The notes beneath the pieces are model-generated. The model was not told where the DNA came from and searched no databases. It worked only from the letters and a program-made list of their open reading frames with translations. A stretch of DNA of 64,000 nt, from the NCBI RefSeq assembly GCF_964213995.1, contig NC_135815.1, forward strand, positions 49,786,001-49,850,000. The letters are read 5' to 3'. Made by a program: the position numbers and the translations under genes. Source of the DNA: Mustelus asterias. Taxonomy: Eukaryota. Each line of letters opens with the position of its first letter. The first letter of the stretch is position 1. Shown piece by piece: positions 1,806-54,076 of this stretch.

Positions 1806-1820
1806 GCAGGGAATTGTCAA
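1806..1820 (+). CDS. EML6: EML6 15-nt microexon, (R)QGIV(K)
   Basis: tttaacttgctttcctttggag|GCAGGGAATTGTCAA|gtaagt. Phase 2/2; peptide resembles the recalled EML5 linker insert RQGVVRGSR. GAG acceptor is atypical. Confidence 0.72.
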
Positions 1821-7976: not shown

Positions 7977-7985
7977 GGGATCCAG
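7977..7985 (+). CDS. EML6: EML6 9-nt microexon, (K)GS(R)
   Basis: atttgctgctggcaag|GGGATCCAG|gtaact. Phase 2/2; completes RQGIVKGSRPPVSR with the flanking exons. Confidence 0.75.
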
Positions 7986-21403: not shown

Positions 21404-21617
21404 TGTGGAGATGCCAGCGTTGGACTGGGGTAAACACAGTAAGAGGTTTAACAACACCAGGTTAAAGTCCAACAGGTTTATTTGGTAGCAAAAGCCACAA
21501 GCTTTCGGAGCCTTAAGCCCCTTCTTCAGGTGAGCTTAAGGCTCCGAAAGCTTGTGGCTTTTGCTACCAAATAAACCTGTTGGACTTTAACCTGGTGTTG
21601 TTAAACTTCTTACTGTG
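21404..21617. mobile_element. Penelope-derived fold-back mini-element with 14-bp TSD, inserted in a tRNA-derived SINE
   Basis: 87-bp inverted arms 21432-21518 and 21534-21620 (1 mismatch); TSD TTTCACTCYCAGGA at 21390-21403 and 21618-21631; arms match the end of the Penelope element at 40466. Confidence 0.88.
21496..21532 (-). ncRNA. Minimal type I hammerhead ribozyme motif
   Basis: Minus strand CAC-CUGAAGA-A-GGGGC UUAAG GCUCC-GAAA-GC-UU-GUG; AAGCUU palindrome at stem III. Confidence 0.75.
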
Positions 21618-23275: not shown

Positions 23276-23422
<147 letters not shown>

Positions 23423-23689
23423 TAACTGGCTGAGTAATAGATTAATGTTTATACATTCACTTAAAATTAGACTAATAAATATGTTTTATGTAACAATCCA
23501 AATATTAATGTTAGTGCATTTGATTGATATTTTATGGGTATTTATTGAAATTATTGAGAAACCCAGAGACAGTTTGGCTCTTAACATTCTGCTTGAAGAG
23601 AAGGAAACTGAATGACAATAAAAAGATAAGAAAAGTTGTAACAGAAACAAAAGAGCTGTTGGCTGTGATCTAGCAGCCACACTATTACA

Positions 23690-24442: not shown

Positions 24443-27400
24443 ATTGGGTATGTAATCACAGCTGTAGAACAGTACACTAACCTCTGCAAGCATGAATTTT
24501 CTAGAACTGATAAACCCAACTGTATGAAAATAACATTGATAGTAAATAAAGCAATATTTTCAAATTAAAAATTACAATCCCATGTAATATCACAAGAATA
24601 GTAAATTTGGCACATATGTCACGTTCAAATGTCATTCTCCAAATGTAAATATGAAGAAACAAGTATCTTTCCAGGAACACAAAATACCAAAATCAGAATG
24701 CCTATAGCCTTTTAACTGTCCTTTGTATGAACTAAAACACAAGTTACTTAACAGTAGTTAGACTTTGGAGGCTTGAAAGAGAATAGACATAGAGCAAGAA
24801 ATAATACACTTCTGTTTTGCAATGTATATTACTTACAAAATAGCACAAAGTTTTGTTTACTGTGAACAAACCAAGGTAAATTTACTTCAATAACAATAAA
24901 TATATCTAGTAGTATTTTGTCCATCACACTTTAGCTGTTGTTCATGTATTTGTGAAGATTTCTGTATCACATTTCCACATCATTACCTAAAATGCAACAA
25001 ATCAGAGGTATGTAGCGATGAGCAGTGCATATGTGAAAATGAATTAAACATATAACTCAAAATTATTCAAAATCCCAATATTGGCAAGAAATCAGTACAT
25101 TTAATTTAGTGGTGAAGAAAAATCTATCAATAAAAGAAAAGCAGGAATTTAATTAATACAATTTTATTTTAAATACAAAAAGAACAACAATTCAACCTCA
25201 GCAGGGCAGAAGACAGATAATAGCCAATCAGCTGCCATTATTTATTTGCCCAATTTTCTTTTCTATTGACTTCAGTTGAAAAGAAAATTAGACGTTGGGT
25301 ACAATGAGCTGCAATCTGCTACCGCACGCCCTGCCAATGGTGAAATTTATGTCTAAAGTCTTTTCAAATATTTTATTTTTCTTAGCAATGATGATATAAT
25401 ACTGTAAAAAGAAAATTTGTAAGACAAAAATGACATTTTATCATTACATAAAGTTACCTATATAATTGACTGGTTTGATCACATTTATTACTGTTTTTAC
25501 TCAGAGACCTTTCTCTCACTAACTCCTAGAGCACTTTTGTTTTTTGTTATACTCAATGTGAAAATAACCAATGCTTCAGCTGATTTATTTATGCAGCTTT
25601 GCTTTCAATGCATCTGTACGCCTGCAGTCAGTAAAAGAAGCACGTTTATTATTATCCAAGAACCAATCAAAAAACTTCACTGACTTAGAGAAAAATTGGG
25701 CAAATTCTGGTGCATTGCCCTGTGGTGAGTTTGATGATGTGGGCATTTAATCAGGTGGGAGGGTGGTAAATAAGAACCCTGCCACCTTCCTGCCTGCGCC
25801 CCAATTAAATCCACAGTCATTCTGCTCCACCATCAATTGAGGCCCTTAAGTGGACAATCAATACTTACTTCAATCAATATCCACTTAAAGGCAGCATCCT
25901 GCCACTGCACTATTAACAGTGAGAAGCTGGGGCGGTTTACCATGTGGGGTGCACGCCAAACTGACTTGCAGCCTCCTGGTTGGGTAGTCGGGGAAAGAGA
26001 GTGGAGACCCTCATTCAAAGGCACAGGGCTTAATCAAGAGACCTAGCATTGGAAAGGAAGGACCGCCACTCTTCCCTTATGCAGACAACTGTCCCCATAA
26101 TCCTCACCCTGCATCCTCTCTTCTGTCCTCTTTTGCCTGTGACTTGGGATCCAGCGCAGCCTGAGGTGGTTCTTGCAGCTCTACAACCTCGCCAGTGGCA
26201 CTATCTTTCAATAGAACTGCTGACCTCTGATTAGGCAGCAGCTATTTGGGCAAGTGGAAGCTCTGTCCCCAGGGTCCTTGATCCCAGGGGAAGATCTGCT
26301 ACTGGTCTGTCATGTTCCTCACTGGAACAAGACATGCTGGACTTCTCAAAAAGGCATTGTGCAATGCTCTTGCAGGCTCTGTTGCCAGTGAATGTAGAGT
26401 TATGCCTTGTGTTAAAGATATTGCCATGTTTATGTGATTATGAATCATTTAAGTACACCTTCATGAAGAACTACATAGTGTTTAAGATGTTAAATCCCAT
26501 CCCACCCCACCCCCATCAGCATTTTAGAGAATCATGACTAATAGAAAAAAATGGATAAATGTGATTCACAGGACCAAATGATAAAGGAGAGTCAATTCAT
26601 GAGATCACGAGCAGATGGCTTGCCACTAAAGAGAAGGCTGGTGCTAATGCAAAAAAAAAGAATTCTAGTGCAAGAACTTTGACAGAAAACTATGCCTTGC
26701 ATATAGCAAAACCTATTGAAGTCCAGTAAAATCACAGTTGGAGAGAAATCAAGGGCCTTGGTACTTCTCGTTGTTCGGGGCTCCTTATTCCCCATAATCA
26801 CCCCTCAACACTTAACCCTCCCCCTCAATCATGCATGATATTTTTCCCTTTTTCATGATTCACCAATCACAGAAATGTTCTAATAATATGATAACACCCA
26901 TTGTTGGCATCTAGTTAAAAATATCATCCAGTATAGATGCTGCATAAGTCATTAATATAAAGAGGAGCAACACTATAATGTGGTGTTAATTTGTGTGCAC
27001 ACAATATCAAACAATGCTGTTAATTTAACAGATTAAAAAACCTATTAGTTAATAACACCAATTTTGATGACAACCTCAGCCCTCATTCTGCAAATCGCAC
27101 CATATGAACACGGGGACAAATTCATATTTGGGGGAGAGATTCAATAATTGCAACCCAGATAAACAGCACAAGATCTTTGCCATTCTGAAGAAGAATTAGA
27201 AGACTTTCCCTGCCTGGGTGTATGATATTTTTCAATATCACTATTTCATTCTATCGTGTGAGATTACTATGATCAAATGACTCCTAAACAACAAAGTAGA
27301 ATAATTTAATGACATAGGTCCTCACTGTCAGTGAGAAGCATTGGAATCCTCAGGTGTTTCTGAGAGACACAACTTTTAAGAGCTCAGATGACAAAGATTG

Positions 27401-29759
27401 AATGGTTCATAATACAACTTTTCACGATATTTAATTATTCAAAAAGATCATGAAATCTCCAAGATAGAGTGGCATAATAGGTAAGTGGGCAAAAGGGTTG
27501 AAATCAATAGGAAGTACTCTTGAGAATCATTTGCAAGATAAAACAGGTTACTAGTATACCACGAGCTTAAAAGCACTCCTGTCCTGGCAATTTCACTCCA
27601 CAAAGCCTGCTCACAGTAACTTTCCATCAGCCACAAAATAAACAGAACTCCAGCATGACTCCATCCACTGTTCGCAAGATAATTATGAAAGATGAAGGTC
27701 ATTGGCCCAGCTCATCTCATCCATCTAGAATGACATATTAACATATGTATTAGGAACAGAAGTAAGCCATTCAGCACCTCACCTATTCTGCTATTTGTTA
27801 ACAATGCCTACATTATACCATTGACTGCAATTCAAAAGTATTTAATTCGCTGAAAAATGATTTGAGGCAACATTAAAGGTGCTGTATAAATGTAAGTTTT
27901 GTCTTTCATCACATCTGCATGCAGTACAGATAATGACTGTAACAGTGTTGAAATTGGAGGCCCAATGCTGATTCTCTACGGATAATCAAAGAATTTGATA
28001 CATTTACAAAGCAATTCAACTTTGTAGCTAATGCACCGTACCATTTTGATTTCTCTGGCACCAACCAACAATATACTATAAATGGCATCTGCTCCTTTTA
28101 CGTTAATGACACTATCCCAAAGATTTGTCAGACATCTACCAGTATCTCAGGAAAAATGTAGATCGAATTGTTGATCTGAATTTTTCAGAGTGGAATGATT
28201 AATGATATGGCCTTAACTCGCGAGCTAGATTGTTTCCCCGTCCACCAGAAGCTGTCATACAAATTGTGTTGTACACTGTGAATTTACTGTTTAAAATGGA
28301 AAAATGTAATTAATAAATAAGAAACTAACAGCAAGAGTACCACCCCACCTCCCAACCTCCCTCCAACACAACCAATCCTTCCAACACATTCACATACCCC
28401 ACCCCTCCAACATCCCCAACCTACCCTTACCCCATCCTCCCCAAGAGTTCCCAATCCCACCAACACCCAACCTCCTTCCCCCCCCCCCCCCCCCCCCCCA
28501 TCCCTCCAACACCCTTTAACCTCTCTTAATCATCTACCCTTCTCCCTTCAGCATCTAATTGGCTCTACACAAGAGATTTCACTTAACCATTTTTCAAGCA
28601 AGAACTCTCTATCAGTTGCTGTGCTGTTGCTGCTGATCTTTGACCAGCTTTTTTGGTTTCCTGGTGGGCTTTTAAAAAGAAAAATCAGAATCACAAAACT
28701 GTCCAATGATTGGGAACAACAGCACAGTAACTAGTGAAACTGACCTGAAAGACTGACTTGGAACTGTCAGCCTAAAAGTTCTTGGGGTGGGGAGGGAGCG
28801 GTGGCATCTTATCAGACTGGCAAGATCATAAGAGAAGCAAAAAACTAGGTTCATGCCCTGTTTCTTACCTCTCGCGATATTACTGACCCCAATCCATTTG
28901 CGGAATCAGCCTTGTGCCTTGGACCGATTATAATATTCATCTCATTTTAACGTGATTAGTTAGCCCAGAACTCATCCCCAGCAATGGGGACCAGACAGGA
29001 TGGCCTCGCAAATGGGATCGGAGGCCATTGAGATCCCTGGTATAGACAGGGGTAGACAGCCAGCTTGGCACCCTAGCTGTGCCCACCAGGCAGTACCAAG
29101 GGGCAGGGCCTAAGGGGAGGCGGTGGGGTCTGAAGGAGAGGCAGCACTGGGGGCTGTGACTCTTGACACAGTGCACTGGGAGATCAGGGTGCATACGCAA
29201 TAGCACCCTCTAGCAGCCAGCTTCCTGGCATGAATAGATTCCATCCACTCCCTTTACTGACGAGAATCACACTTTACCTTTTTTTTCCTAAGTGTCGTAA
29301 GATTTGATTTTTTTTCCCTTGCTGAAAAAGGTGGTCTGAAACGCAACCATTTTCGCGCTCATTTGGCACTTTGAATTTTTTTTGTAAGATAGTCTCCATG
29401 ATGTTTTTTAAAGTCAGTCTTTCAGGTCCACAGCTCTGCCTCTGTCTGCACAAATCTAGGGACAAGAAACTTAATTTCGAGCAACAAGCCTGCCCCCGGC
29501 CCTTCCCCAAGACCCCAGGTCGTGATATTTGGCAATGCCTGCCCCCATTTGCTGGGTCCTGAGTGACATAGGACATTTTACCAAGTGCTGCAGGTGTCAG
29601 ATATCAAATATTAATAACATTTGAGGCTGACATTTTAATAACTGTTAGCACGTGGAGTAAGGGATAAATGGAAATTTATCAGATGTCAATAACACTGAAG
29701 TTACCTTTGAACTTAATTTTAGGAGTATAGGTAAAAGTGCGAACACAAAATTTGCTGCA

Positions 29760-30000
29760 GATGCAAGATAATTAAATTTTGAAGTTAGCATATAGATAAA
29801 TTCTTTACTCAAAAAGTGTGATGAGAATGAGGAACACTGCATGAAGCTTATAGTTTAAATGAATTTATGGGGAAGCTGGACAAGCATATGACAGAGGATT
29901 ACGATGATAGGTTTGGATGAGGAAAGATGGGAGGAGCTGTGAATGGAGCATAAATCCCAACATGGACTGGTTGGGCTGAACAGCCTGTTTATATGCATAT
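29760..30000 (+). mobile_element. Old CR1 3' end
   Basis: ttctttactc..gggaagctggacaagcatatg..catggactggttgggctgaacagcctgttt. Confidence 0.6.
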
Positions 30001-33000
30001 ATCCTGTGAAAGGTCAGTGCTTAGAAACAGTGAAGTACAACAAAGTGTGTAAAGAAAAGTTTATTATCCTGGGGATGTACAATTTTAGATTTGCATGTGG
30101 CAAATGTAAGCTTATAAATTGAATTTACTGAGTGCGATGGGGATCTTGCCCACCAATGGGAGCCCTGCATTGCTTCTCTCAGATGAAATTACAAAGTAAT
30201 CAATGTAATCAAGCACTTATTTGGACAGTGTCAGGTCTCCCACTCGATTAAACATCCAGAAGGATAGAAATTAATTGATTCACTAGTTATGGCTGAGTGT
30301 GGACAGGATTAGGGTTTGCAGGGATGGGTTGTTAGTGAGGGGGTTGGTGATTTTAATAGGCATCTTCTTCCCGATGCTGGATCCCTTGATTAGGCAGAGT
30401 CTCACCTGGAGCTCGATCGGGGGAAATCAGGAAGGCAACGGGGTCACCACCCATACCCTCCACTTCAGCTGAATCAAACGGCTCCCCACCTCTGAACTTG
30501 CCAGGGGGAGAAACATTAAATTCCACCCAATACTGAATGTTAAGGCATCCATGCGGAGTGCTGCTATACCACACACACACACGATTAGAATTCTCCAGCA
30601 GGTAAATATAATGGAGTTGTTGAGAAACGTACTCAACCAATACAACGTGCAATGGTCTGATTTTCACTAATTTTGCCTATGAGGTGGGTGTTTCACTCTG
30701 GCATCAACCTTGCAAATATGTAGGATGGCCCTGAAATTGGGATGGATCCCCTGCTGGCTCAAGTCAATTATTACTCTTGTCCTGTACACATGGAAACAAT
30801 TCCCATCTGGGAGTCCAAAACTGGCCCCTACTTTGAGATGGTAACCTGTAGTTTTCACTTAAAATAATCCACCTCTCTGTAGTTTCCTCTTTCCAATCAG
30901 CCAACTCTGATTTTGATTCTTGTTTTGCCTTCTGTGATTTATTATTATAGCTATTTCTATTATAATTGCTCTCTAATTTTGTTACCCAAAACTAAGTCCA
31001 GTTTTACAGCATCTATTATATAGCATGTTAGATACCAATTCAAAAACATATTCTTCACAGCATTCTCAATATTTCTCTTAATTTAACCCCCATTATATTT
31101 ATTCCCAATAAGTTCACAATTTCTTTCAATTTTGTAGGATGTAAATGATAGTATATTTTGTAGCATGACCTTCATTTACCCTTTAGCTTAACACAGGGAT
31201 TATCAGCAAATTATTACTTGCAATATATTTCCTTTCTATTGTTGAATTATTTCCTTACAAAGTAATGCTACACTTCTCCATTTTTGCTCAAACCTCTTCA
31301 AAAAGTGATATAGCTTAAAATGCTTAGTCTATATGCAACATGTGAACCCAGATTTCAGTTAAAGCAACAAAATCATGTTTTATGCGGTTGTTGCTTCTAA
31401 TTCCCTTGATTTTATTTTATAATACTTACACTTTTTAGCTCTTCTCATTGCTATTTGTAACTTCTATTCATTCTCTGCTTCATTTTTCACTCCGAAATAC
31501 TTCTTGTTTGTTCTTCTTATGCCTACTGTACAAGTCACATTATCAGCTCATCTGACCATTTAAAAATTATTTTATGGGATGTGAGCCAACATTTATTGCC
31601 CATCCCTAATTGTCCTTGAGATGCTGGTGGTGAGCTCACTTCTTGAATAGCTGCAGTCCATGTGGCGTAGGATCACCCAAGGTGCTGTTAGGAAGGGAAT
31701 TCCAGGATTTTGACTCAGCAACAGTGATAGTATATGTGGCTTGGAGGGGAACTTTCAGGCGTTGTTGTTCCCATGTATCTGCTGCCTTTATCCTTCCACG
31801 TGGTATGGTCGTATGATTGGAAGAAACTTTCAAGTGTTATCTGGCTTTGTCATTTCTCCTATTGTTTGAAAGTTCTCTCTTACATCCTTTCTTGTTGGAA
31901 TTTTTATAGCCTGAACATTCCTAGCTCATGATCTCCCTTGCCATTCAAATTATATCCTTCATAATTAATCCTCTCGGAGAATAATCATGCAATTTCAAGA
32001 TAAAATGAAGTATCTAATTTCCATCATTTCTAGGTTGTGCCTCGATGCTCCCTAAATCTGAAAACTTCCCATCTGCTGTGTTCTTAAGCCTTTAATTTTC
32101 CTCTACGTAGGTAGCTCAGCCTGGGCTAAACACTGTAGTACAAAGGTCTGGCACATATAAGGTTAATGTGGGACTGAGTATAGTATGGTTCAAACATGAC
32201 CTGCACCCAGATCAGTCTACTGTTGGACAGAGCCTATGTACTAGCAAACATGTTGACACCTCCTAGCTTGTATCCTTTGGTGTATATTTGTAAATAATTC
32301 TCTAAGACTCAATAAAAACTTAGTTAACCTACATATGACTACGAAGACTTCTTCAGACCTAATGAACTGTAACCAACACCTTACAACATGGTAGGAGGTT
32401 GTGGAAAAACCCAAAATCTCACAAAAACTAAAATGCTGGAGGACCGAGGAAAAATTCAGCAAAACAGTCTGACCTGAAAAGAAGCTCCAGAAGCAGAGAG
32501 ACAGAGGCAAAATCATCAGCAAGAAAACTCCAAAGAAAGCATTGGGAGCTGGAGGCAGAAAGTTAAAATCCCTTATTGCAGCAGAACGCTCTATTGAATC
32601 TCCTTTGGAAGACCAGCTTCTAATCCCAGACACCTAGCAGGGTTAAGCTGAATCTTTTAAAACTCCAGGCTACAGCAAGTCCTGAGAAATCTTTAAATAA
32701 TTCAGAGTCAGAACTGCAGTTTGAAGAAAACCATCATTAAAGTCAGATCCCCGCGTCGGCGTCTGAAAATGTGGCATCAAAGCTTGCTCTGAAACAACAT
32801 AATCTGGGAGAATCATGATTTCTAAACTCAGCTGACAGAAAACAAAACCAGGATTCGGCAATTTGTGTCTTTAAAATAAAACGCTGAGCAAGAGATCTCT
32901 GCAGGCAGTCGATCCAGGCATTGGTTGTTGAATTTTTTTTTCAAGCAGAGTGCAATCACCATTATAGTGAGCCTGCCAAAACCAACAAGCGTGGGAAAGC

Positions 33001-34389
33001 CCTTTGTCTCCAAGCGATGCCATCTTGAATTTCAGAAAGCTCTTAAAGCAGAACCTACTCTTTAAAAATTTAACCATTGATCACTTCAGACTAGTCCAAG
33101 GTTCAGATCAGTCATATAATTGGTGACTTTTGAGAAAAAGATTCCTTGGACACAATATCACTGAGTTTAGATAAAAATTCGGAAGCAGAGCAGGTTTACA
33201 CACTGCTTTACCTAGTAGACCTGATTGCAGACAGCATTATTGCAAGATAGGGAATCAACAAATCATCTGTTAAATTTGAAGAAGTACTAAATCAAATTTA
33301 TTTTAATCGAAGGAAAAATAAAACATTTGAAAGAGCTAAATTTAACAAGTGAACCCAGCAGCTAGGAGAACCTGTTGATTCATTCATTAATAATCTGTAC
33401 AGGATGGCAGAAGGTTGTGACTATGGGGACTTAAAATTTAAACTCAAAGACAAAATAGTGGGTGACACACTCTCTGACCTCATGTAATCAAAAGGAAGAT
33501 CTAACCCTGGAAAAAGCAATCCAAATAGTTAGACAATTAGAGCTCCATGAACAGCATAGCCCATTTTAAGGGAAGAAAATACGGTGCAGAGGCCAACCCA
33601 TAGTTCAGCTAGTTAAGCAACAATGACATAGGGACAGTCAAGGCCAGGAAAAGCAATACCTGGGCTGACCAACAGAATGACCATGCCAATACTATGGAGC
33701 AAAGCGCCTCCACATGCAAGATTGACGTCCTGCAATTTTTGCGCAATGCTTTCAGTGCAACAGGATTGAATACTATGTGCAAAACAAAAACAATGCACAG
33801 AAAGCCCAAAGATTATCCACAAGGTCAAGACAGCAAGCCCTGAAGACAGACAGCCATGCTTCCTGGGTGAGGGCCAAGAACTCAGATTCTCATTTTGGAA
33901 TGAGGACATTTCCATCAATGACCATTTCACAAATTTTAAGTTAGACACAGGAACCACCAGAACAGTTCTGTTGGACTGAGAACCGTGGCTGAAAGACTTC
34001 TGGCTTCAAACAACAGACACGCCACTCAATGGTCCGGAGGAATCCAACTTCCGGTCATAGGCATGATCCTGGAACCACTAAGGTACAGTATCCAGACTGG
34101 GACTTCAGCTCTGAACTGGTGTCTCTCTTTGTGGACCAGGGTTGTCCATTCTCATTACAGGTGCTGAAAAACCTTCAACCAGTCAATCATTGAGGAGATA
34201 ACCACAACACCTCCAAGGAGGATGTAAAAGAGAGTGACCAGTACTCTAATGAGCCACAACCTCCAACGATGTTACAGCAGGTCAACACTACAACCACTCA
34301 ACTCCCAACCAGTACGCCAAAACCATAAAAGATGCTGAAACCTGGTAGCCGCTGCCCACTGCCAACAGCGAAACAGAGGTTAGTGTGCC

Positions 34390-35901
34390 TGTTGAGTTCC
34401 TATGACATGGAAAGAAACCCACCACTATATACTTGAAAACTTTATTGCCAGCTGAAACAAAGAAAATTAAGGCTTCTAAATCACATGATCAGAGGGTTAG
34501 CCCTATGTTTGGGAACTATCTCCAGGACTTTAAAGGACAAAAAAAATATTTTCTCAGTTTTGGAAATTCATATCTCATTATGCCTAGAGAGCTACGAATA
34601 GACACATATCACACCTAGGACTGTTCAGACTAATTTCAAAGGAAACTACAGGGTTGTTATTTGCATTGTGACCCTTAGGGAGTATGAGGATGTTTTAGGG
34701 TGGGGATGGGATTTCAATGGCGTGCAAGGCCTCCTGCCTTCATGGTCAAAAAGCCGCCATGATTTATGAATGTTGGACATTTGGACTAGGCGCTCTTTAA
34801 TGCTGTGTTTTCAGGAAGGGTTGGGGGTGGGATATGGAGAGGATGGTGAAGATTATGGTGGCACTTCTTTAGCTCCATTCATTACAGTGTGTGGAACTTG
34901 CTATCATGTGGAATAATTGAAGTGAAAAACTTCAGGTTCATTTGAAGGAAAAGGACTTGAGGGTAAAGGAATAGGGTTCGATGGAAATCAGTAGAAGGCG
35001 GCTCATGTGTAGCATAAAACACTAGCATAGAGCATTTGAGCCATGGCTTTTTTCAGTGCTGTTAATTCTGCATAAAAGCCAACCTTGCTAGCAGAGTCAG
35101 TGGTTCTGCTGAGACAATGGCCTCCCAAACACCAAGCCCTCAACATCGATTGCACTCCTTTTAACAACTTATGTCTGAGACATTAGCAGTCCTGAAACCA
35201 CATCCAATTCCAGACCCTGGATAAACATCCCTTTTGAAGTCATTGTCGAGAAGGAAGGACACATGATTCAAGCCTCCAGCCTTTTGGACAGTTTAATATT
35301 ACATCTCTGGTCTTCACAGCTAGACTGCTATTTTAACATCAATTGGACAGTACTCCAGCAACCAGGTTGGGTAAGCAGTCTCAACTCCACAAAGTCTACT
35401 TGATTTTTAAAAGTGTCTGATCCACCCTGGCCAAGTGGTCTAAGCACAGAAACGCCCCTCTTGCAGCAGCATTGTTTGTTTCAAGAATTTATTTTATTTA
35501 ACCAATCAGAAACTCATCAGAACAGAACCCAACCTCTGGACTATGGACCTCACATGAACTAATATTCACTTGTTTTTTTGGGGGGGGGGGGGGGTCTTTA
35601 ATAAGAAAACTTATTTTCTCTATCTCCCCCCACCACTTTTACTGTGTGAACGTGTGGAGTGGAAGGTGATTCAAAACTTTTTTTATCTCCGGGTTTTGAA
35701 TGTATAAAATAAACCAATCTTCTGTGTTAATCCTAACTTGAGTTTGCTGCTGATTATTAGTAAAATTGGATCACAAATCCAAGGGTATTGGAAAACGCAT
35801 CACTGCCTATTCTTTTAAAAACGAATTCAAAATACTACCTGTCCCTAAGTAGAAGGTAAGAGGAAATCAGTGCAATATGAACTATCCTTCTGTCCATAAC
35901 A
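34390..35901 (+). mobile_element. LTR-like insertion nested in the Gypsy element, 5-bp TSD
   Basis: TGTTGA...ATAACA termini; GTGCC at 34385-34389 and 35902-35906; AATAAA near 35708; contains an old CR1 3' fragment (about 34870-35070). Confidence 0.65.
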
Positions 35902-36547
35902 GTGCCACTCAATCTCATTCTAGTCAGAGGAATGGGCATCCTCTGCCACAGAGGACATTGCCATGGCCCACACAATGATGGAAGAAGCAAAAAAAAACAA
36001 GGAGACAAATACAGTGTTCACTCACCCCGCAATAAACGACTCAGGGTAGCCACCCCTAACGAGCACAGCAGCCAAACTGACCAAATGCAGTTCAACACGA
36101 AAGAAAAGGATGAAACCATAACCCAGATGCCAGATCAACCTCCAAGCCTACAGAAAGAACCGGCAGCAAGAGAGCCTACGATGACTCTGACAATAGCGCA
36201 AATTAATATGGAAAGGTCAAAGGCCTCTGGACCGCCTTAACCTTTGAATTCAAGGACTTGAAGGAGGGAGATGGAGTAGTGATAACCATATAAACGTATG
36301 ATAATAATATTGTATGGTAAACTATAATCATTTAAAATACATTGGATAGATAAAGACTTGGGGGGTGGGGGGAATACCATATCAAGGTCTGGCACATTAG
36401 GTTTAATGTGGGACTGCATGCAATATTGCTCACACAGTGATGTAAGAGAGCACATTACACACACCCAGGATAAATCTAGTGTTCAACAGAGCCAAGTGTA
36501 CCAACAAGCATGGAGACAGCTCTTAGCTTGTACCCTAAGAGTCCATA

Positions 36548-36742
36548 TGAAACCATAGAATCCCTACAGTGCAGAAGGAGCCCATTTGGCCTATTTAGTC
36601 TGCACTGAGTCTCCGAAGCAGCATCTTACCCAGGTCCACACCCCCACCACCCTATCCATGTAACCCCTTGCATTGCTAATCCATCTACCTACAGCTTTGG
36701 ACACCAAGGGGCAATTTAGCATGGCCAATCACATCTTGGGAC
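36548..36742 (-). mobile_element. SINE fragment with CR1-like tail (HE1-type)
   Basis: catagaatccctacagtgcagaagg tail and ggggcaatttagcatggccaatc body; interrupts the 3' LTR. Confidence 0.65.
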
Positions 36743-37039
36743 TCTCAGTTAAGCTAATTATGACTAAGATGATTTCTTCAGACTCACCAAACTGTAACCA
36801 ATACCTTACGTTGGGAAATTGGGATCTAAATTGGATAGCCCTCAAAACAGGTGAAGGGTTCATTATATATGAATTGAATTATAGCTAACAAATCAACTTT
36901 GTGTTCCATGGTCATCAGCATGATCTTTGCAGTCAGCACTATTGATTGGCCTCATGCATCACCTCATTGTGGCTGCAGCGAGTGCTGGGTCTTGTGGGAA
37001 GTGGATCTGTCCTGTGAAACATAGGGGAAATGACAAAAC

Positions 37040-37680
37040 ATGGGAGGAAATGAGTTCCAAGGTTTTTGGACATTGTATTAGTGTGAGAAATGGAGAGGAG
37101 GAGAGATACCCTGTACCCACGGGAGAGCTGAAGGCATTCAAGATACTAGCCCAAGGACAGTGAGAGAAAATAGCCATGGAGGTCAATACCAGGAGTCACG
37201 TTCAGAGGACCTGGAAGTGGTGACACAATAAGTTCAGTGGCTTCACACAAGTGATCAAGGTTAGTGAACATAAATTCAAATGTCATATCCTACTAACTGC
37301 ACCTTTAACCTCAGCCACTGCTCTGTACACTACAGCTCCTATTACTCACCTACCAACAATATTATCTAGAATTCATACTAGATTCATTGCACCCTCTCAA
37401 CTTAGCACTACTGAAAGGCTCACCCACATCTTTCCAGTTGCTCACGTTACCAGCTATTCAATCATGACCCAAACATGTTTGCACAACAGTAACTGATAAT
37501 CTTTCCTCTCTCTTGTAGGACAAGGGAACCATAGGTAGCAGGAATTAATTTGGGGGGACAGGTGCAGTTGCAAGTTCTAACCCCAGTGGAGCAGATGATT
37601 CTGGTTGCTATTGAAATAGCTGTTGCTGAGGTCATGACCAGTAGTAGAGGTGAAATCTCTGAGAATGATGGTATCCTCAT
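37040..37680 (+). mobile_element. Harbinger Myb/SANT-like ORF2 remnant retaining an intron
   Basis: Degenerate coding blocks separated by gttagt (37260) ... tctcttgtag (37519); second block GGQVQLQVLTPVEQ. Confidence 0.5.
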
Positions 37681-38294
37681 AACTAGACCTCTTCCTCCCA
37701 TCCGACAATCCCCTCATCCCGCATTCTCTGAGACAGTGCATTGATGAGTCCAAAATGGGATCGCTAGTGTCAAATCTGCACAACATGCTGATAGATGTCA
37801 TGACCTGCCTGCTTTACATGCATTTAGTGGATTATTACCACCATGCACTAACACCTTCACCAAAATGTCACCTAACAGTATTCATGGCAAAAGTGTGTAC
37901 AAATGCATCAGACACTTTTTTCATTCATGAATGGCACACATTGTGCCCAAACAGTGAGTACTAGCAAACCCAATTTTGTACTCTGGAAGGTCATATGAGC
38001 TTATTACCTTTCAAATTTTATTCTTTATCTTACATCCTAGCATTTCAAACACACACTGCAAAACATTTATTATGTTTTTATTTATATCATTGGCTCTGAC
38101 ATAAACCATGACTTCTAGATGATAATACTTCTTTCCAAAAAAATTTCAACCTGCTCTAGTATGTTCCTTGCACTGTCATTTGGAAAGCAACATGCCATTC
38201 TGGACTCCTGATTACAGCTTCAAAAACAATGTTTATTTCCTTATTTCCAAATACCATTTACAGTGACTTAGTATATAGATTGCTGTAAGAGAAA

Positions 38295-38640
38295 GGACTT
38301 GCTTTTATATAGTGCCTGTCATGACCTCAGGATGTCCCAACATGTTTGAACCAATGAAGTATTTTGCAATATATTCACTGTTCTGAGGTGGGGAACTATG
38401 ACAGCCAATATGCACACAAGATGATCTCAGAAACATGAAATAACCAGATTTTTTTGTGATGTTGGTGAAGGATTAATATAGGCCAGGATACTAAGAGAAC
38501 TTCCTTGTTCCTGCTTCAAATGATGGAATGGGATTTTTTCCCTCTCACAGAAAGGGTCTCAGTTTAATGTCTCATCTGAAAGACGGAACCTCCAACTGTG
38601 CAGACTCCCTCAGTACTGCATTAAAGCATCAGTTTTAAAT
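38295..38640 (-). mobile_element. Ancient SINE (Deu/SacSINE-like)
   Basis: ttatatagtgcc..gacctcaggatgtccc tail and cagtttaatgtctcatctgaaagac..cagtactgca core, recognised from memory. Confidence 0.55.
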
Positions 38641-39253
38641 TCTGTTCAATTTCTCAATAACCCCTGTTCAAATCTTAAAATGTTCAAGATATTTAACAAT
38701 GTCAATACCATCCCTTTAAGTATGCCATAAAATAAAACATTGTAACTACTGACCTCAGGAGATTGCAAGATTGCGTTAAACTGCTCATTTGATTCTTTAA
38801 TTTAGGTGAACAAAAGGAGATATAAAATAATGTTGTCATTTTTACTGGTCTTCAAATATAGCTCAGTATTCTTATTGTATTAGTGGTCAGTTTCCATTTG
38901 TACTGTTAAGTACAAGAAATTATTTACTTAGTGTGATAATTACTGTTTACGAGTGGAATAAGTACCTTATAATCTAAACCTCGTAAAATAAGTGACAATG
39001 ATTTAAATTGTGGTACATTTAACAGTCTAGTTTAGGTAATAAAGTTTTATCAATGTAATAATGAGTCATAATTGTATTTTAGCTTCAAATCAGAATTTTG
39101 CTTTTCTTAAAAACACATTTTACTTCATGTCCATTTTGCATGTTTAATTTATCAGTATTTCTCCTCTGATACTGTTGTATGATGCCTCAGGATCAGAGAT
39201 ATAATTTATCTAGGCTCAATATGTCCTCATTTGCAATTGCTATCTCAATGCAG

Positions 39254-39274
39254 GTGATATTACAGACACAACAG
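39254..39274 (+). CDS. EML6: EML6 21-nt microexon, GDITDTT(G)
   Basis: ttgcaattgctatctcaatgcag|GTGATATTACAGACACAACAG|gtaagg. Phase 1/1; same position and length as the recalled EML5 insert GDSADMSA. Confidence 0.82.
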
Positions 39275-39583
39275 GTAAGGCTATCAGCTCTTTCCCCTAC
39301 CCCAGTCATTCCCCCATTCTCTCTAGTTTTATTTGTGCAGTTTCACTGACTTCCTTGTCCAGGTGAAACTGTAGTAATGTATCTGCTCATAAAGCAGATA
39401 CATGTGGTTATGCAACCCATGATTTTGTTGAGTTCATTGCAGTGCTTAGTAGATAGCATTAGGATAAAACCCTTGGTGTATGTTTCTTGCCTGAACTATA
39501 TTAATTGACTGAATTTTCAGAAAATATGCAAGCAATTAATAAAAATATTTATACAAGGTGCTAAAAATCAGTTCAAGTTTTAA

Positions 39584-39829
<246 letters not shown>

Positions 39830-40465
39830 TAAAGCTTATTATAATTAGCAAACTATTTATTTATTTGTTCTATTTTACATAGCCACTGACCTACATTCAC
39901 CGATTTATGACAGGAGTTAAGGAACAGATTGTAGATACTGCACTAAATGCATCAATGCTATGTTATGATGTCTCAGTAGAAGGCAAAATGATTAACAAAA
40001 TATTTTGTCTTTTATTTCCTTCAGTAGCAATAGAACAGAGACTTTGTTTGGCTTTTTCTTTCATCCCATTATAGTCTGTCTTTCCACCCAGTCAGTTTCT
40101 GATTTTGGTACTTTGTGCCCTCAAGTATGATTGGCACAGACTTGAATGTATCTTGACATTAACATCCTTGTTACATCTGGCTAGACCACATAAAACCCTA
40201 TAGGGCCTTGATGTCCACTGCCAAAACCACATACTTCAGGATTATCCTGGACTGTAAAAATAACTCCTTGTCTCTTTTTGTCACAAATACGATCTGCTTA
40301 AATTTCTCTCTTGTTCACGGCATTTTTATCTCCAAGAACAAGTACAACAAGCTTATGAGCTTCTTGTCACTGAGATTGATACCATCCATTCAGAAGCCTC
40401 TGCAGCACCCATCCTTTTCCCTTGCCCAACAAGTTAGTCATCCTCAATGGTTCTCCCCACTAAGT

Positions 40466-42820
40466 AAGAGTTTTAACAACACCAGGTTAAAATCCAACAG
40501 GTTTATTTGGTAGCAAATGCCATTAGCTTTCGGAGCGCTGCCCCTTCATCAGATGGAGTGGATATCTGCTCTCAAACAGGGCATACAGAGACACAAAATC
40601 AAGTGACAGAATACTGATTAGAATGCGAATCTCTACAGCCAACCAGGTCTTAAAGATACAGACAATGTGAGTGGAGGGAGCATTAAGCACAGGTTAAAGA
40701 GATGTGTATTGTCTCCAGACAGGACAGCCAGTGAGATTCTGCAAGTCCAGGAGGTAAGCTATGGGGGGTTACTGATAGTGCGACATAAACCCAAGATCCC
40801 GGTTTAGGCCGTCCTCATGTGTGCAGAACTTGGCTATCAGTTTCTGCTCAGCGACTCTGCGCTGTCGTGTGTCGTGAAGGCCGCCTTGGAGAATGCTTAC
40901 CCGAAGATCAGAGGCTGAATGCCCGTGACCGCTGAAGTGCTCCCCCACAGGAAGAGAACAGTCTTGCCTGGTGATTGTCGAGCGGTGTTCGTTCATCCGT
41001 TGTCGTAGCGTCTGCATGGTTTCCCCAATGTACCATGCCTTGGGACATCCTTTCCTGCAGCGTATCAGGTAGACAACGTTGGCCGAGTTGCAAGAGTAGG
41101 TACTGTGTACCTGGTAGATGGTGTTCTCACGTGAGATGATGGTATCCGTGTCGATGATCCGGCACGTCTTGCAGAGGTTGCTGTGCCAGGGTTGTGTGGT
41201 GTCATGGTCACTGTACTCCTGAAGGCTGGGTAGTTTGCTGCGGACAATGGTCTGTTTGAGGTTGTGCGGTTGTTTGAAGGCAAGAAGTGGGGGTGTGGGG
41301 ATGGCCTTGGCGAGATGTTCGTCTTCATCAATGACATGTTGAAGGCTCCGGAGGAGATGCTGTAGCTTCTCCGCTCTGGGGAAGTACTGGCCGATGAAGG
41401 GTACTCTGTCCACCGTGTCCCGTGTTTGTCTTCTGAGGAGGTCGGTGCGGTTTTTCGCTGTGGCGCGTCGGAACTGTCGATCGATGAGTCAAGCGCCATA
41501 TCCTGTTCTTATGAGAGCATCTTTCAGCATCTGGAGGTGTCTGTTGCGATCCTCCTCATCCGAGCAGATCCTGTGTATACGGAGGGCTTGTCCGTAAGGG
41601 ATGGCTTCTTTAATGTGTTTAGGGTGGAAGCTGGAGAAGCGGAGCATCGTGAGGTTATCCGTGGGCTTGCGGTACAGTGAGGTGCTGAAGTGATCGTCCT
41701 TAATGGAGATGCATGTGTCCAAGAATGCAACCGATTCCGGAGAGTAGTCCATGGTGAGTCTGATGGTGGGATGGAACTTGTTGATGTCATCATATAGTTG
41801 TTTCAGTGATTGTTCACCATGAGTCCAAAGGAAGAAAATGTCATCGATGTATCTAGTGTATAGCATCAGTTGAAGGTCCTGTGCGGTGAAGAAGTCTTGT
41901 TTGAACCTGTGCATGAAGGTGTTGGCATGTTGAGGTGCGAATTTGGTCCCCATGGCTGTTCCGTGTGTCTGGATGAAGAACTGGTTGTTGAAAGTGAAGA
42001 CATTGTGGTCCAGGATGAAGCGGATGAGTTGTAAAATTGCATCTAGAAACAGGCAGTTGTCGGCATTGAGTACTGAGGCCGTTGCAGCAATGCCATCATC
42101 GTGGGGGATGCTGGTGTAGAGTGCCGAGACGTCCATTGTGGCGAGGAGTGCTCCTGGTTCAACTGCTCCATGTGTGCTGAGTTTCTGTAGGAAGTCCGTA
42201 GTGTCGCGACAAAAGCTGGGGGTTCTTTGTACAATGGGTTTCAGGATGCTCTCGACATAGCCGGAGAGGGTCCCATTGCCCGATACGATGGGACGGCCGG
42301 GTGTGTTTGCCTTGTGTATCTTCGGAAGGCAGTAGAGATCTCCAACGTGGGATGAGAGCACGGAGGGTGCTCTGAAGGTCCGGATCAAAGGTCTTGATCA
42401 GAGTGTTGAGTTGATGGGTGTGTTCTTTGGTCGGATCTGTGGGTAACTGTCTGTAGTGTTCCTCGTTGTTCAGTTGTCGGTACACTTCTTTGCAGTAATC
42501 CGTTCTGTTCAGTATGACGATTGCTTCTCCTTTGTCTACTGGTTTGATGACAATGTTGCGGTTGGTCTTGAGAGCGTGGATGGCGTTGCGTCGTGCTTGG
42601 GTGATGTTCGGGGCTGTCTTGTGAGTGCAGCTGATGAATTTGATGTTGACGCACCTCCTGACGGCTTGGGCATACATGTCAAGTCGAGGGCAGCAGCCTT
42701 CCGGAGGAGTCCAATTCGACTCTTTCCTCTTCGGTTGCACTGCGGATCTCTCTGTCGGCTGTTCCGGTTCATTGGCTGTCTCATTGTGTTCGCTGTTGGC
42801 CTCTTGGGGTTTGTGGAAGA
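40466..42820 (-). mobile_element. Penelope-like retroelement (RT plus GIY-YIG endonuclease), 5'-truncated, 14-bp TSD
   Basis: RT motifs LPKIHK..PGRPIVS, GTAMGT, RYIDD (41489-42388); GIY-YIG NVVYLIRC..YIGET..RMNEH (40769-41413); TSD TCTCCCYACTAAGT at 40452-40465 and 42821-42834; a few stops and frameshifts. Confidence 0.95.
40520..40556 (-). ncRNA. Minimal hammerhead ribozyme motif in the Penelope 3' pLTR
   Basis: Minus strand CCAU-CUGAUGA-A-GGGGC AGC GCUCC-GAAA-GC-UA-AUGG. Confidence 0.8.
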
Positions 42821-45783: not shown

Positions 45784-46657
45784 TTTGATTTTGATTTGAT
45801 TTGTCACATGAAATTTTGTTTCTTGCGTGCTATACAGACAAAGCATGCTGTACGTAGAGGAGAGGGTGCAGAATGTTGTGTTACAGTCATAGCTAGCGAG
45901 TAGAGAAAGATCAACTTAATATGAGGTAGGTCCATTCAAAAGTCTGATGGCAGCAGGGAAGCTGTTGTAGCCGGTTGGTACGCGATCTCAGACTTTCGTA
46001 TCTTTTTCCCGACGGAAGAAGATGGAAGAGAGAATGTCTGGGGTGCGCGGGGTCCTTGATTATGCTGGCTGCCTTTCCGAGGCAGCAGGAAGTGTAGACA
46101 GAATCAATGGACAGGAGGCTGATTTGTGTGATGGGCTGGGCTTCGTTCACAACCCTTTGTAGTTTCATGTGGTCTTGGACAAATCAGCAGCCATACCAAG
46201 CTGTGATACAACCAGAAAGAATGCTTTCCATGGTGCATCTGTAGAAGTTGGAGAGAGTAGTAGCAGACATGCCAAATTTCCTGAGCCTCCTGACAAACTA
46301 GAGGCGTTGGTGGGCTTTCTTAACTATAGTGTCAGCATGGAGGGACCAGGAACAGGTTGTTGGTGATTTGGACATCTAGAAAGTTGAAGCTCTCGACCAT
46401 TTCCATTTCATCTCCATTGATGTAGGTAGGGACATGTCCTTCACTACGTTTCCTGAAGCCGATAACTATCCCCTTCATTTTGCTGATATTGAAGGGGAGA
46501 TTATTGTTGTTGCATCAGTTCACCAGATTCTCTATCTCTTTCTTGTACTCCGTCTCATCATTGTTTGAGATCTGACCCATCACGATGGTGTCATCAGCAA
46601 ACCTGAAAATCAAGTTGGAGGGGAATTTGGCCACATAGTTATAGGTGTAAAAGGAGT
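45784..46657 (-). mobile_element. 5'-truncated Rex1/Babar LINE
   Basis: (ATCAA)n tail on minus strand; KLQRVVNEAQ..KAASIIKDPAHP. Confidence 0.88.
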
Positions 46658-48937
46658 ACCCTGTCAAGACCCATCAGGATCTTAAAGGTATCAACCAAGT
46701 TGCCTCTTACTCTTCAAATTTCAGTGAATGCAGACCTAACCTTTCAAACCTCTACTCATAACACAACCCACCCATTCCTGGTATTAGTCTAGTAAACCTT
46801 CTCTGATCTGCTTCTAATGTATTTGCATCTTTCCTTAAATAAACTGATACCTTCCAGATGTAGTTTCGCCAATGCCCTGTAGAACTGAAGCATAACCTTC
46901 CTACTTTTGTAAAAAAATTCCCCTCACAATAAATGATAACATTCTATTAGCTTAATGTACCTGTATATTAGCCTTTTGTGATTCATGCACGACACCCAGA
47001 TTCCTCAGAATGCCAGACCTCTGTAATCTGTCACCACTAGATAATAAGTTTTTTTTATTCTTCCAACCAAAATGGAGAATTTCACATTTGCCTGTGTTAT
47101 ACTCCATTTGCCAGATCTTTACCCACTCACTTAATCTATGTCTCTTGTAACCTCCTTATGTCCTCTTCACAATCTACTTTTCTACCTGCCTTTGCATCGA
47201 CAACAAATTTAGCAACCATATTTGATTTGATTTATTGTCACATGTATTGGTATACACAGTGACAAGTTTGTTTCTTGTGCGCTATACAGACAAAGCATAG
47301 TATTCATAGAGAATGAAAGGAGAGGGTGTAGAATGTAGTGTTACAGTCATAGCTAGGGTGTAGAGAAAGATCAACTTAATATCAGATAAGTCCATTCAAA
47401 AGTCTGATGGCAGCAGGAAAGAAACTGTTGAGTCGGTTGGTACATGATCCCAGACTTTTGTATTCTTTTTCCCCCCCAACGGAAAAAGGCAGAAGAGTGT
47501 ATGTCCAGGCTGTATTGGGTCATCGATTATGCTGACTGCTTTTCTGAAGCAGCGGGAACTGTAGGCAGAGTCAATGGATGGGAGGCTGGTTTGCGTAATG
47601 GACTGGGCTACATTCACAACCCTTTGTAGTTTCTTGCAGTCTTGGTCAGAGCAGGAGCCATACCAAGCTGTGATACATCCAGGGATGATGCTTTCTATGG
47701 TGCATTTGTAAAAGCTGGTGAGAGTCATGACGGACATGCAGAATTTTTTTAGCCTCCTGAGTACGTAGAGGCATTGGTGGGCTCTCTTAACTATAGCGTT
47801 GGCATGGAGAGACCAGGACAGGTCGTTGGTGATCTGGACACCTAGAAACTTGAAGCTCTTGATCAATTCTACTTCATCCCCATTGATGTAGACAGGGGCA
47901 TGCTTCCTGAAGTCAATGACTATCTCCTTCATTTTGCTGACATTGAGGGAGAGATTGTCATTGCATCAGTTCACCAGATTCTCTCTCTCTCTTTCCTGTA
48001 CTCCATCTCATCATTACAAGATCTGACCAACTACAGTGGTGTAAACAGCAAATTTGAAAATAGAGTTGGAATAATTTGGCCCCACAGTCATAGGTTTATA
48101 AGGAGCATAGTAAGGGGCTGATGACACAGTACCCAGGGCACCAGTCTTGAGGAAAATTGTGGAGGTGTTGTTGCCTATCCTACTGACTTCGGTCTGTGGG
48201 TTAGGAAGTCTAGGATCCAGTTGCAGAGGGAGGAGCCGACCCCAAGGCCATGGAGTTTGGAGATGAGTTTTGTTGGAACAATGGTGTTGAAGACTGAGCT
48301 ATAGTCAATAAATAGGAGTCTGACATAAGTGTCTTTGTTATCCAGATGTTCCAGGGTTGAGTGTAGAAGCAGGGAGATGGTGTCTGCTGTGGACCTGTTA
48401 CGGTGGGCGAAATGCGCACTGTAGTGGATCCAGGCAATCTTGGAGGCCGGAATTGATCCATGCCATGACAAACCTTTCAAAGCACTTCATAATGATGGAT
48501 GTCAGAGCCACCGAGCGATAATCATTGAGGCACGCTGCCTGACCTTTCTTTGATACAGGGATGATGATCATCTTCTTGAAGCAGGGTAGGGACCTCAGAT
48601 CAGTATAAGGAGAGATTAAAGATATCTGTGAATACATCCGCCAGCTGGTTTGCGCAGGATCTGAGTGCCCGTCTGGGTACCCTATTGGGCCAGTCGCTTT
48701 CTGTGGATTGACTTTCAAGAGGGTTGATTTGACATCTGTGATGGTGACCTCCGATACTGGTTCAGCTGAGGCTTCTGAGGGGGGGTTAGGGTATAGTTTC
48801 CAGTTGGAAAACACACGGATTTGCTTCTTTTGCACAAAGTCTTCTACATCTTACTAATGAAGTCTGTTACTGTAGTAGCATACTCATTCAGGTTGGTCAC
48901 TGAATTCTTAAATATTGACCAGTCCACTGACTCGAAG

Positions 48938-49474: not shown

Positions 49475-50807
49475 CTTGAATTTTTAAATATTGACCAGTC
49501 CACTGATTCGAAGCAGCCCCATAGATCATCTGATTCCTCAGACCAACATTGCATGACTTTCTTTATCAGATTCTCCCATTTCAGTTTTTGCTTGTAAGCT
49601 GGCAACAAGAGCATAGCCTTGTGGTCTGATTTGCCAGGGTGTGGGCGGGCAATAGAGCGATAGGCATGTTTGGTGTTTGTGTAGCAGTGGTCTAGGATGT
49701 TTAGGCCTCTGGTGGAACAGGAGATGTGTTAATGGTTTCTTGGTAGGACATTCTTGAGTTTGGCCTGGTTGAAGTCCCCAGCCACACTGAACAAGGCCTC
49801 GGGAAGTTTCGTCTCAAGGCTACTAGTGGTATATGTATTATCCAGCGCCGTCTTCACCAACGCTTGGGGTGGGATGTAAACTGCTGTCAGGATAACAGAG
49901 GTGAACTCCCGCAGAAGGTAGTAGGGGCAGCATTTCAGTGTCAGGTATTCTAGGTCCGGTGGCGGGCAGAAACTCGCCAGTTTGCTATGTCTGGGCACCA
50001 AGAGGTGTTGACTAGAAGGCAGATCCCATTTCCCTATCTTTGTCGGAGGCCGCTGTACGGTCCAGTGGAATGAGAAGCCCTCCGGTTGTAGGGCACAGTC
50101 CAGTGAAACAGGAGTGAGCCATGTCTCCGTGAAGCAGAGCAGACATCAGTCTCTTGTTCCTTTTGAAAAAAGTGAGTCTGGCTTTAAGTTCATCTAGCTT
50201 GTTTTCCAGAGATTGGATATTTGCCAGGAGTAAGTTGGAGAGGGGGGTCTTGGGACCTATGTTGTTTCACTCTCACCTGCAGGCCTGCGTGTTTCCCACA
50301 CTTCCTGGAGTGGCTGCTTCTTTTCATGCCTGGGAGATGGTGAGAGTAGTATTCGGTATGAAGGGTATAAGTGTGTCCAGTGAGGTTCTTCGCTTTGGTC
50401 GGTGTGTGGGTAGAGGATTTGTTGCCATGGTCACGGTTCCTGCGTCGGCAGTTCGGTCTGCGCAGTCGGGTGTTTGGGTCGCCGTCAGGCTGTGGTTTGA
50501 TTTCGGAGGATGTTCATACCATGCTCCGGCATGGACAGGTCGAAGGTCAGCAAGTGGATGGGGTCTCTGGGGTTACGATAATGGATGAGCCAATGGCCAA
50601 GTCCACGTGATAGGGTCCTCTGGGTCACTGCTAGGTCGGGGGTCTTCCTTCAGAGGATCTCTAGACCTGCAAGTAAATTTAAAAGAGCGGTGTTAGTAAT
50701 CTTTAAGCAGTAGAAGCACAAGGTCGCAGCTCTCTGGGTCAGAGGAGTTGGAGGCCGGGGAGTGAAGGCCCCAGCTCCAGACTTGCTGCTCTGGCTGTTA
50801 GGATTGA

Positions 50808-51164
50808 CACAGTAAGAAGTCTCACAACACCAGGTTAAAGTCCAACAGGTTTATTTGGTAGCAAATACCATAAACTTTCGGAGCACAGCTCCTTCGTCAG
50901 ATGGAGTGGATATCTGTTCTCAAACAGTGCAAACAGACACAGAAATCAAATTACAGAATACTGATTAGAATGCAAATCTCTACAGCCAGCCAGGTCTTAA
51001 ATGTACAGACAATGTGGGTGGAGGTTAAAGAGATGTGTATTGTCTCCAGACAGAACAGCTAGTGAAATTCTGCAAGTCCAGGAGGCAAGCTGTGGGGGTT
51101 ACTGATAATGTGACATAAATCCAACATCCCGGTTTAGGCCGTCCTCATGTGTGCGGATCTTGGC
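50808..51164 (-). mobile_element. Penelope 3' fragment with 9-bp TSD
   Basis: Closely similar to 40466-40836; TAGGATTGA at 50799-50807 and 51165-51173. Confidence 0.9.
50868..50904 (-). ncRNA. Minimal hammerhead ribozyme motif
   Basis: Minus strand CCAU-CUGACGA-A-GGAGC UGU GCUCC-GAAA-GU-UU-AUGG. Confidence 0.7.
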
Positions 51165-53571: not shown

Positions 53572-54076
53572 GAAAAAGTCCCAGTCTATCCAGTCTCCCC
53601 TTATGACTCAAACCATCAAGCCCCCGTAGCATCCTAGTAAATCTTTTCTGCACTCTTTCTAGTTTAATAATATCCTTTCTACAATAGGGTGACCAGAACT
53701 GTACAGTATTGCAAGTATAGCCTTACCAATGTCTTGTACAACTTCAACAAGATGTCCCAACTCTTGTATTCAATGTTTTGACCAATGAAACCAAGCATGC
53801 CGAATGCCTTCTTCACCACTCTGTCCACCTGTGACTCCACTTTCAAGGAACTATGAACCTGTACCCCTAGATCTCTTTGTTTTATAACTCTCCCCAACAC
53901 CCTACATTAACTGAGCAAGTCCTGCCCTGGTTCTATCAAAATGCATCACCACACATTTATCTAAATTAAACTCCATCTGCCATTCGTCAGCCCACTGGTC
54001 CAATTGATCAAGATCCCTTTGCAATCCTAGATAACATTCTTCACTGTCCATTATGCATCTGCAAACTTACTAACCA
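53572..54076 (-). mobile_element. CR1 internal RT fragment, same subfamily as 4800-5959
   Basis: QRDLGVQVHSSLKVESQVDRVVKKAFGMLGFIGQNIEY, nearly identical to the 5128 ORF. Confidence 0.92.

What the first reader, a model, noticed from the sequence alone, without database searches (positions are those of the whole stretch)
39137..39280. 21-nt microexon inserting 7 residues into a WD40 loop
Seen: three TGC motifs within 22 nt of the acceptor, TGCATG at 39137-39142, CAG/GTAAGG sites and phase 1/1, giving QIG-DITDTTG-TTPSIH. Recalled: EML5 reads QVG-DSADMSA-TAPSIH while human EML6 reads QIGTTPSIH. Inference: an ancestral microexon retained, and probably alternatively spliced, in shark EML6.
Basis: partly seen in the sequence, partly recalled or inferred. 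Interest (0 to 1): 0.7.

Follow-up and report, generated by a model that had tools for sequence, protein, structure and literature searches.

The report
Conserved optional mini-exon in shark EML6
A 21-base exon in the shark EML6 gene is real and optional, adds seven amino acids to a surface loop of a tubulin-associated protein, dates back to early vertebrates and is already in public gene annotations, so it is an ordinary member of a well-known class.

Summary
Confirmed. Window 39254-39274 is a 21-nt, phase 1/1 cassette exon of shark EML6. It adds 7 residues to a beta-hairpin loop in the third TAPE domain.

The same insert is already in public predicted isoforms of sharks, rays, chimaera, bony fish, amphibians, squamates and birds, often beside a skipped isoform from the same species. 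EML5 carries it at the same place, and so does the lamprey gene. None of 48 non-vertebrate or unnamed homologues examined has it. It therefore arose early in vertebrates, before the EML5/EML6 split.

It is not a shark relic. Only placental EML6 lacks it (10 of 10 readable records), and loss there is unproven. Spliced contigs of relatives show skipping directly (2 of 4 runs) and inclusion only indirectly (1 of 4).

Neural SRRM3/4 control is inferred from UGC motifs and a conserved flank, not shown; several published microexon tables do not list the gene. Two further microexons lie in the window (1806-1820, 7977-7985). I found no paper on this exon and no earlier scan note on it. Ordinary biology, low interest.

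The parts
39254..39274 (+). 21-nt cassette microexon of EML6, phase 1/1, net +7 residues
   Evidence: orthologous inserts
39249..39253 (+). 3' splice site TGCAG (contains the third TGC)
39275..39280 (+). 5' splice site GTAAGG
39232..39240 (+). two TGC motifs (39232, 39238), candidate SRRM3/4 enhancer
   Evidence: function inferred from passages
39226..39230 (+). candidate branch point (YTNAY) inside the AG-free zone 39214-39251
   Evidence: inference only
39137..39142 (+). TGCATG, RBFOX-type motif 112 nt upstream of the exon; weak alone
39074..39249 (+). conserved upstream intron flank: 170 of 176 letters alike, no gaps, in a relative whose flanking exons differ at 7 of 102 and 4 of 178
   Evidence: table 8, run X3 records 29 and 24
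39275..39429 (+). less conserved downstream flank (record covers 39251-39429, 17 other letters, 6 gaps)
   Evidence: run X3 record 30
23280..23378 (+). upstream coding exon (99 nt), ends in phase 1
39648..39821 (+). downstream coding exon (174 nt), starts in phase 1
1806..1820 (+).
7977..7985 (+). 9-nt microexon of the same gene; with the 15-nt exon it gives the 8-residue linker insert

Best explanation
A conserved, frame-keeping cassette microexon of EML6. When included, it lengthens the hairpin loop between two strands of a WD40 blade just after the third HELP motif by 7 mostly acidic or small residues, leaving the TAPE fold intact. When skipped, the loop is short, as in the protein's first two TAPE units and in invertebrates. 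It arose once in early vertebrates, before EML5 and EML6 separated (inferred by parsimony). Inclusion is most likely driven by SRRM3/4 at the upstream UGC motifs in neurons or related cells and skipped elsewhere (inferred). The likely effect is to tune binding of tubulin or another partner at that surface (inferred).
For: Shown: splice anatomy and chance tests. EML6 records with the 7-residue insert: chondrichthyans 12 of 31 (14 skip, 1 other, 4 no junction), amphibians 16 of 28 (9 skip, 3 none), sauropsids 9 of 27 (14 skip, 2 other, 2 none); ray-finned fish 35 of 105 (51 skip, 17 other, 2 none). Lamprey 9 of 15 (4 skip, 2 other). EML5 156 of 201 (22 skip, 10 other, 13 none). Both forms are annotated within one species in Callorhinchus, Hemitrygon, Amblyraja, Acipenser ruthenus, Rana, Ascaphus, Petromyzon and Lampetra. 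Short loop in 35 of 35 non-vertebrate or unnamed homologues (29 named, 6 unnamed) and 13 of 13 oyster-cluster records. Direct skip joins in runs X2 and X3; in X1 the spliced contig extends to 39643 with one mismatch, which fits the microexon's end (1 mismatch) and not the upstream exon's end (2). Upstream flank as conserved as the coding exons. The model puts the insert between strands 78-84 and 96-101, local pLDDT 73-81 against a mean of 87; best fold match is the EML1 TAPE domain 4ci8, TM 0.88. A 15-nt EML5 microexon, matching window 1806-1820 by length and position, responds to SRRM3/4 (PMC9303857 supplement rows).
Against: No tissue data at all. No contig piece showed the inclusion join directly, and none of the four runs laid held all words of the stretch, so they are probably relatives. 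Searches for eml5/eml6 in the supplements of three zebrafish microexon papers and one mouse microexon paper gave 0 hits. One SRRM4 paper marks EML5 as not in its microexon set. The retina tables list no 21-nt EML5 or EML6 event. The EML5 copy is included in most records, which looks close to constitutive, though that set was fetched with an insert-bearing query. The region has no unusual RNA fold (z 0.36). The protein records are predicted models, and near-identical records are not independent.
Confidence: 0.6

Rival explanations
1. A real alternative microexon, but not SRRM3/4-neural: controlled by other factors (for example RBFOX repressing from the upstream TGCATG, or muscle or testis programmes) or included broadly at intermediate levels.
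For: Absent by gene name from four microexon supplements; EML5 copy mostly included; TGCATG lies upstream, the repressive side, inside the conserved block.
Against: 3 TGC within 22 nt of an AG occurs at 12 of 4304 AGs; UGC near the 3' splice site marks most SRRM3/4 targets (57 of 73 and 51 of 71; passages); a neighbouring microexon of the paralogue is SRRM3/4-responsive. Gene naming or coverage may explain the blank tables.
Confidence: 0.33
2. The exon is decaying or silent in this particular shark although used in relatives.
For: The exact peptide read here was not among the 54 distinct inserts fetched. The closest protein record (Mustelus) and several other shark records skip it. No direct inclusion join was seen.
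Against: Intact strong splice sites, open frame, and a peptide one residue from the skate and sawfish insert; flank conserved; X1 fits inclusion.
Confidence: 0.05
3. Chance splice-like motifs in a long intron.
For: 8 YAG-3n-GTRAG candidates exist in this intron by pattern alone.
Against: Only this one matches an insert conserved from lamprey to birds.
Confidence: 0.01

Closest known systems
Annotated EML6 isoforms of other cartilaginous fish (e.g. Scyliorhinus canicula XP_038665843.1, Hemiscyllium ocellatum XP_060686923.1, Amblyraja radiata XP_032881107.1, Callorhinchus milii XP_007890604.2)
   Same: Same gene, junction, length and near-identical insert.
   Different: One to three residues of the insert differ; these are predicted records with no tissue or functional study that I found.
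The EML5 insert at the same junction (human XP_016876553.1; shark, fish and bird EML5)
   Same: Same position and length, related sequence; skipped forms exist and change the junction residue as a phase-1 exon predicts.
   Different: Far more uniform in sequence, included in most records, and kept in mammals.
SRRM3/4-dependent neural microexons (3-27 nt), including EML5 HsaEX0022381 (15 nt; PMC9303857 supplement rows)
   Same: Length, frame keeping, UGC near the 3' splice site, strong donor, conserved flank, surface-loop position.
   Different: Tissue pattern and SRRM dependence of the 21-nt exon are untested; it is not in the tables I could search.
EML1 TAPE domain (PDB 4CI8)
   Same: Same fold (TM 0.88). 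EML1 has a long loop at this very place, one residue longer than the included form in the alignment.
   Different: The loop sequences are not similar, so this is a likeness of length only; whether EML1 encodes its loop in a separate exon was not examined.

Membership tests
EML6 (EML5/6 class, three HELP-WD units) | Exons match EML6 better than EML5 | tested here: met
   86-100% identity to Mustelus EML6 against 61-82% to a rodent EML5; one search separates the EML5 and EML6 clades (quick tree).
Cassette microexon | 3-27 nt with canonical AG/GT sites, frame kept | tested here: met
Cassette microexon | Skipped transcripts exist | tested here: met
   direct joins in 2 of 4 runs (X2, X3; relatives); X21 starts at the same place.
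Cassette microexon | Included transcripts exist in this species | tested here: inconclusive
   indirect in X1 only; annotated isoforms in related species.
SRRM3/4-dependent neural microexon | UGC motif(s) close upstream of the 3' splice site | tested here: met
   two informative TGC plus one in the acceptor.
SRRM3/4-dependent neural microexon | Highly conserved flanking intron | tested here: met
   170 of 176 upstream letters alike in run X3 (one relative only).
SRRM3/4-dependent neural microexon | Inclusion high in neural, low in other tissues | not testable with these tools
   Runs carry no tissue labels and are contigs.
SRRM3/4-dependent neural microexon | Inclusion depends on SRRM3/4 | tested here: inconclusive
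   Not listed by gene name in the supplements searched; only the 15-nt EML5 exon is listed as responsive.
RBFOX-regulated exon | Conserved (U)GCAUG positioned to act on the exon | tested here: inconclusive
   One motif 112 nt upstream, inside the conserved block; per-base differences there were not shown; about 5% by chance.
Shark-specific retained relic | Absent from EML6 of bony vertebrates | tested here: not met
   Present in fish, amphibian, squamate and bird EML6.

The most novel reading that the evidence does not exclude
One microexon, born at the base of vertebrates, switches the third TAPE domain between a short loop and a long loop of nearly EML1 length, and took different paths after gene duplication: almost fixed in EML5, optional and fast-changing in EML6, and lost from placental EML6. 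That would be a clean natural test of how duplicated microexons divide or lose their roles.
Probability: 0.35. Interest if true: 0.4.

Novelty: already known. Interest (0 to 1): 0.2.

Why it matters
The exon is already in public gene models, and conserved microexons in surface loops are a large, well-studied class whose single members usually have mild effects when deleted (PMC12626424, abstract). What I did not find in print is its history across the EML5/EML6 pair and its apparent absence from placental EML6. If confirmed, that gives a tidy example of microexon fate after duplication and points to a loop worth testing in two little-studied microtubule proteins.

Tried and rejected
No whole genome is held for this window, so the rest of the gene could not be read. 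The run search listed no holder on record as RNA; spliced joins show that at least X2 and X3 hold mRNA-derived contigs. The joint table was filled by repeat artefacts (274 rows not shown), so the inclusion join could not be read directly. The profile search of 50%-identity representatives was mostly unrelated WD40 proteins and exon-only fragments; it gave only the lead to an oyster homologue. RNA folding of 39130-39330 gave nothing beyond shuffles. The careful tree did not finish; the quick tree puts lamprey with EML5 but flags lamprey composition, so lamprey orthology is left open. A nested acceptor would give a 9-nt variant (39266-39274); no matching 3-residue insert was seen in the proteins. 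Paper searches for EML6+microexon, EML5+microexon and EML6+alternative splicing+exon inclusion gave 0 papers; searches listed nothing on this exon. Earlier scan notes: none by place; those by words concern other genes. No skipped-form model and no complex prediction were run, as no partner is known.

Full report
Setting. The window holds the 3' part of an EML6 gene on the + strand. tblastn places nine coding exons between about 14471 and 61580, with 86-100% identity to Mustelus asterias EML6 and 61-82% to a rodent EML5. The source is therefore a shark close to Mustelus (inference). No genome is held. EML5 and EML6 consist of three HELP-WD units, and an intact TAPE domain can bind soluble tubulin (PMC4761370, passages).

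The exon is 39254-39274, with TGCAG before it and GTAAGG after it, in phase 1 on both sides. Inclusion and skipping both keep the frame. The TGC and TGCATG positions are as stated. Three TGC within 22 nt of an AG occurs at 12 of 4304 AGs, but the third is part of the acceptor itself. TGCATG occurs 22 times in the window and is weak alone. Among 58 AG-21nt-GT stretches in the intron, only this one matches the vertebrate insert profile (11.6 bits, next 3.2).

The exon is already annotated. A search with the downstream exon alone and cluster look-ups (15 members listed per cluster at most) returned EML6 proteins with a 7-residue insert at this junction. Counts with insert: chondrichthyans 12 of 31, amphibians 16 of 28, sauropsids 9 of 27, ray-finned fish 35 of 105. 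The remainder skip, carry a different insert (probably model errors), or lack the junction; the full breakdown is in the For line. Both forms are annotated within single species, including chimaera, stingray, skate, sturgeon, frogs and two lampreys. These are predicted records and not independent of each other; that such isoform models usually rest on RNA alignments is my own knowledge.

History. EML5 has the insert at the same place in 156 of 201 records (22 skip, 10 other, 13 no junction). That set was partly fetched with an insert-bearing query, so its inclusion share is inflated. Skipped EML5 forms change the junction residue just as a 21-nt phase-1 exon predicts. Lamprey has it in 9 of 15 records. 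A quick tree separates EML5 and EML6 and groups lamprey with EML5, with a composition warning. The loop is short in 35 of 35 non-vertebrate or unnamed homologues and in 13 of 13 oyster-cluster records. Only one amphioxus and one tunicate record were seen, so the lower date is soft. One origin before the EML5/EML6 split is the simplest reading. Placental EML6 skips in 10 of 11 records (1 lacks the junction), against 64 of 80 mammalian EML5 records with the insert. No marsupial, monotreme or human EML6 record was fetched and no mammalian intron could be read, so loss is suggested, not shown.

RNA. Four coded runs were laid on 23200-39900 (4 of the 24 listed). In X2 and X3 one contig joins 23376 to 39646 with nothing between: the skipped form. 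X21 starts at 39646 as well. In X1 a 7245-nt contig with the same depth on both exons extends to 39643 with a single mismatch. The microexon's last five bases give one mismatch there and the upstream exon's give two, so X1 fits inclusion, but its other piece was not printed. In X3 the intron just upstream (39074-39249) matches at 170 of 176 letters without gaps, as well as its coding exons do (7 of 102 and 4 of 178 differ). No tissue can be read from these runs.

Structure. I folded a snake EML6 third-TAPE protein that carries the insert (P0166; alignment of 47 rows). Mean pLDDT was 87.1. The insert (86-92) sits in the loop between strands 78-84 and 96-101, with lower local confidence. The best fold match is the EML1 TAPE domain, TM 0.88. 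By the usual WD40 strand naming this is the b-c loop on the propeller's top face, a common binding surface (recalled convention). EML1 has a loop one residue longer than the included form at this place, while the first two TAPE units of EML5/6 have the short loop. The loop sequences are unlike, so I take this as a likeness of length only.

Mechanism. Shown: the exon, skipping in relatives, conservation, loop position. Inferred: SRRM3/4 act at the upstream UGCs to include it in neurons. UGC near the 3' splice site marks most SRRM3/4 targets but is not strictly required (10.1101/2024.09.17.613571, passages; PMC12871342, passages). Upstream RBFOX binding tends to cause skipping (PMC10551640, passages). 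In favour, a 15-nt EML5 microexon is retina-enriched and SRRM3/4-responsive (PMC9303857, supplement rows only); by length and position it corresponds to window 1806-1820. Against, the gene names gave no hits in the supplements of PMC12626424, PMC12626420 (12 of 13 files), PMC7821500 and PMC13281805, and PMC7935315 marks EML5 as outside its microexon set (supplement rows; one scanned file unread). The supplement of PMC12871342 could not be read, bioRxiv supplements are closed, and VastDB was not available; any of these may list this exon. I put the full mechanism at 0.6 and the exon's reality near certain.

Two more microexons. Alignment showed an 8-residue optional insert in the linker before the third HELP motif, shared by EML5, EML6 (including a lemur) and amphioxus. 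In the window it is two exons, 15 nt at 1806-1820 and 9 nt at 7977-7985, each with TGC upstream. Records with only one of the two exist.

Verdict. Real, conserved and already annotated. No paper on this exon turned up, which cover only the open-licence library. Interest 0.2.

Noticed in passing
window 1806-1820 and 7977-7985: Two further EML6 microexons (15 and 9 nt) that together give the 8-residue linker insert; the insert is also in amphioxus, so it is older than the 21-nt exon appears to be. A TGCATG lies at 7899.
   Followed up: partly
window 39266-39274: A nested CAG inside the microexon could give a 9-nt in-frame variant with the same donor; no matching protein record was seen.
   Followed up: partly
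proteins P0037, P0045, P0076, P0077, P0119: Some teleost EML6 records carry a 12-residue insert (7 + 5) at this junction, suggesting an extended or second small exon.
   Followed up: no
teleost EML6 records: Teleosts show two EML6 types by the residues after the junction, and both carry the insert in some records.
   Followed up: no
window 21425-21629: A 205-nt palindrome (93% self-complementary) whose arms resemble 40463-40552 and 50807-50884; possibly a small transposon.
   Followed up: no
window 45805-46656, 47220-48339, 57585-58691, 60013-60390; 5075-5567 with 53572-54056: Dispersed repeat copies, about 80% alike in the first group and 90% alike and inverted in the second.
   Followed up: no
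window about 31585-31740 and 36550-36730: Short stretches with very high contig depth in all four runs, typical of an abundant short interspersed repeat.
   Followed up: no
run X1 record 7: A contig ends exactly at the microexon's first base (39254) and runs into the downstream intron; unexplained, may be chance at low depth.
   Followed up: no
cluster 6: The sturgeon EML6 cluster also holds ubiquitin-S27a proteins, pointing to a chimeric gene model in the database.
   Followed up: no
PMC9303857 supplement, chicken sheet: Chicken EML6 has a separate 126-nt retina-enriched exon (GgaEX1022401); not looked for in this window.
   Followed up: no
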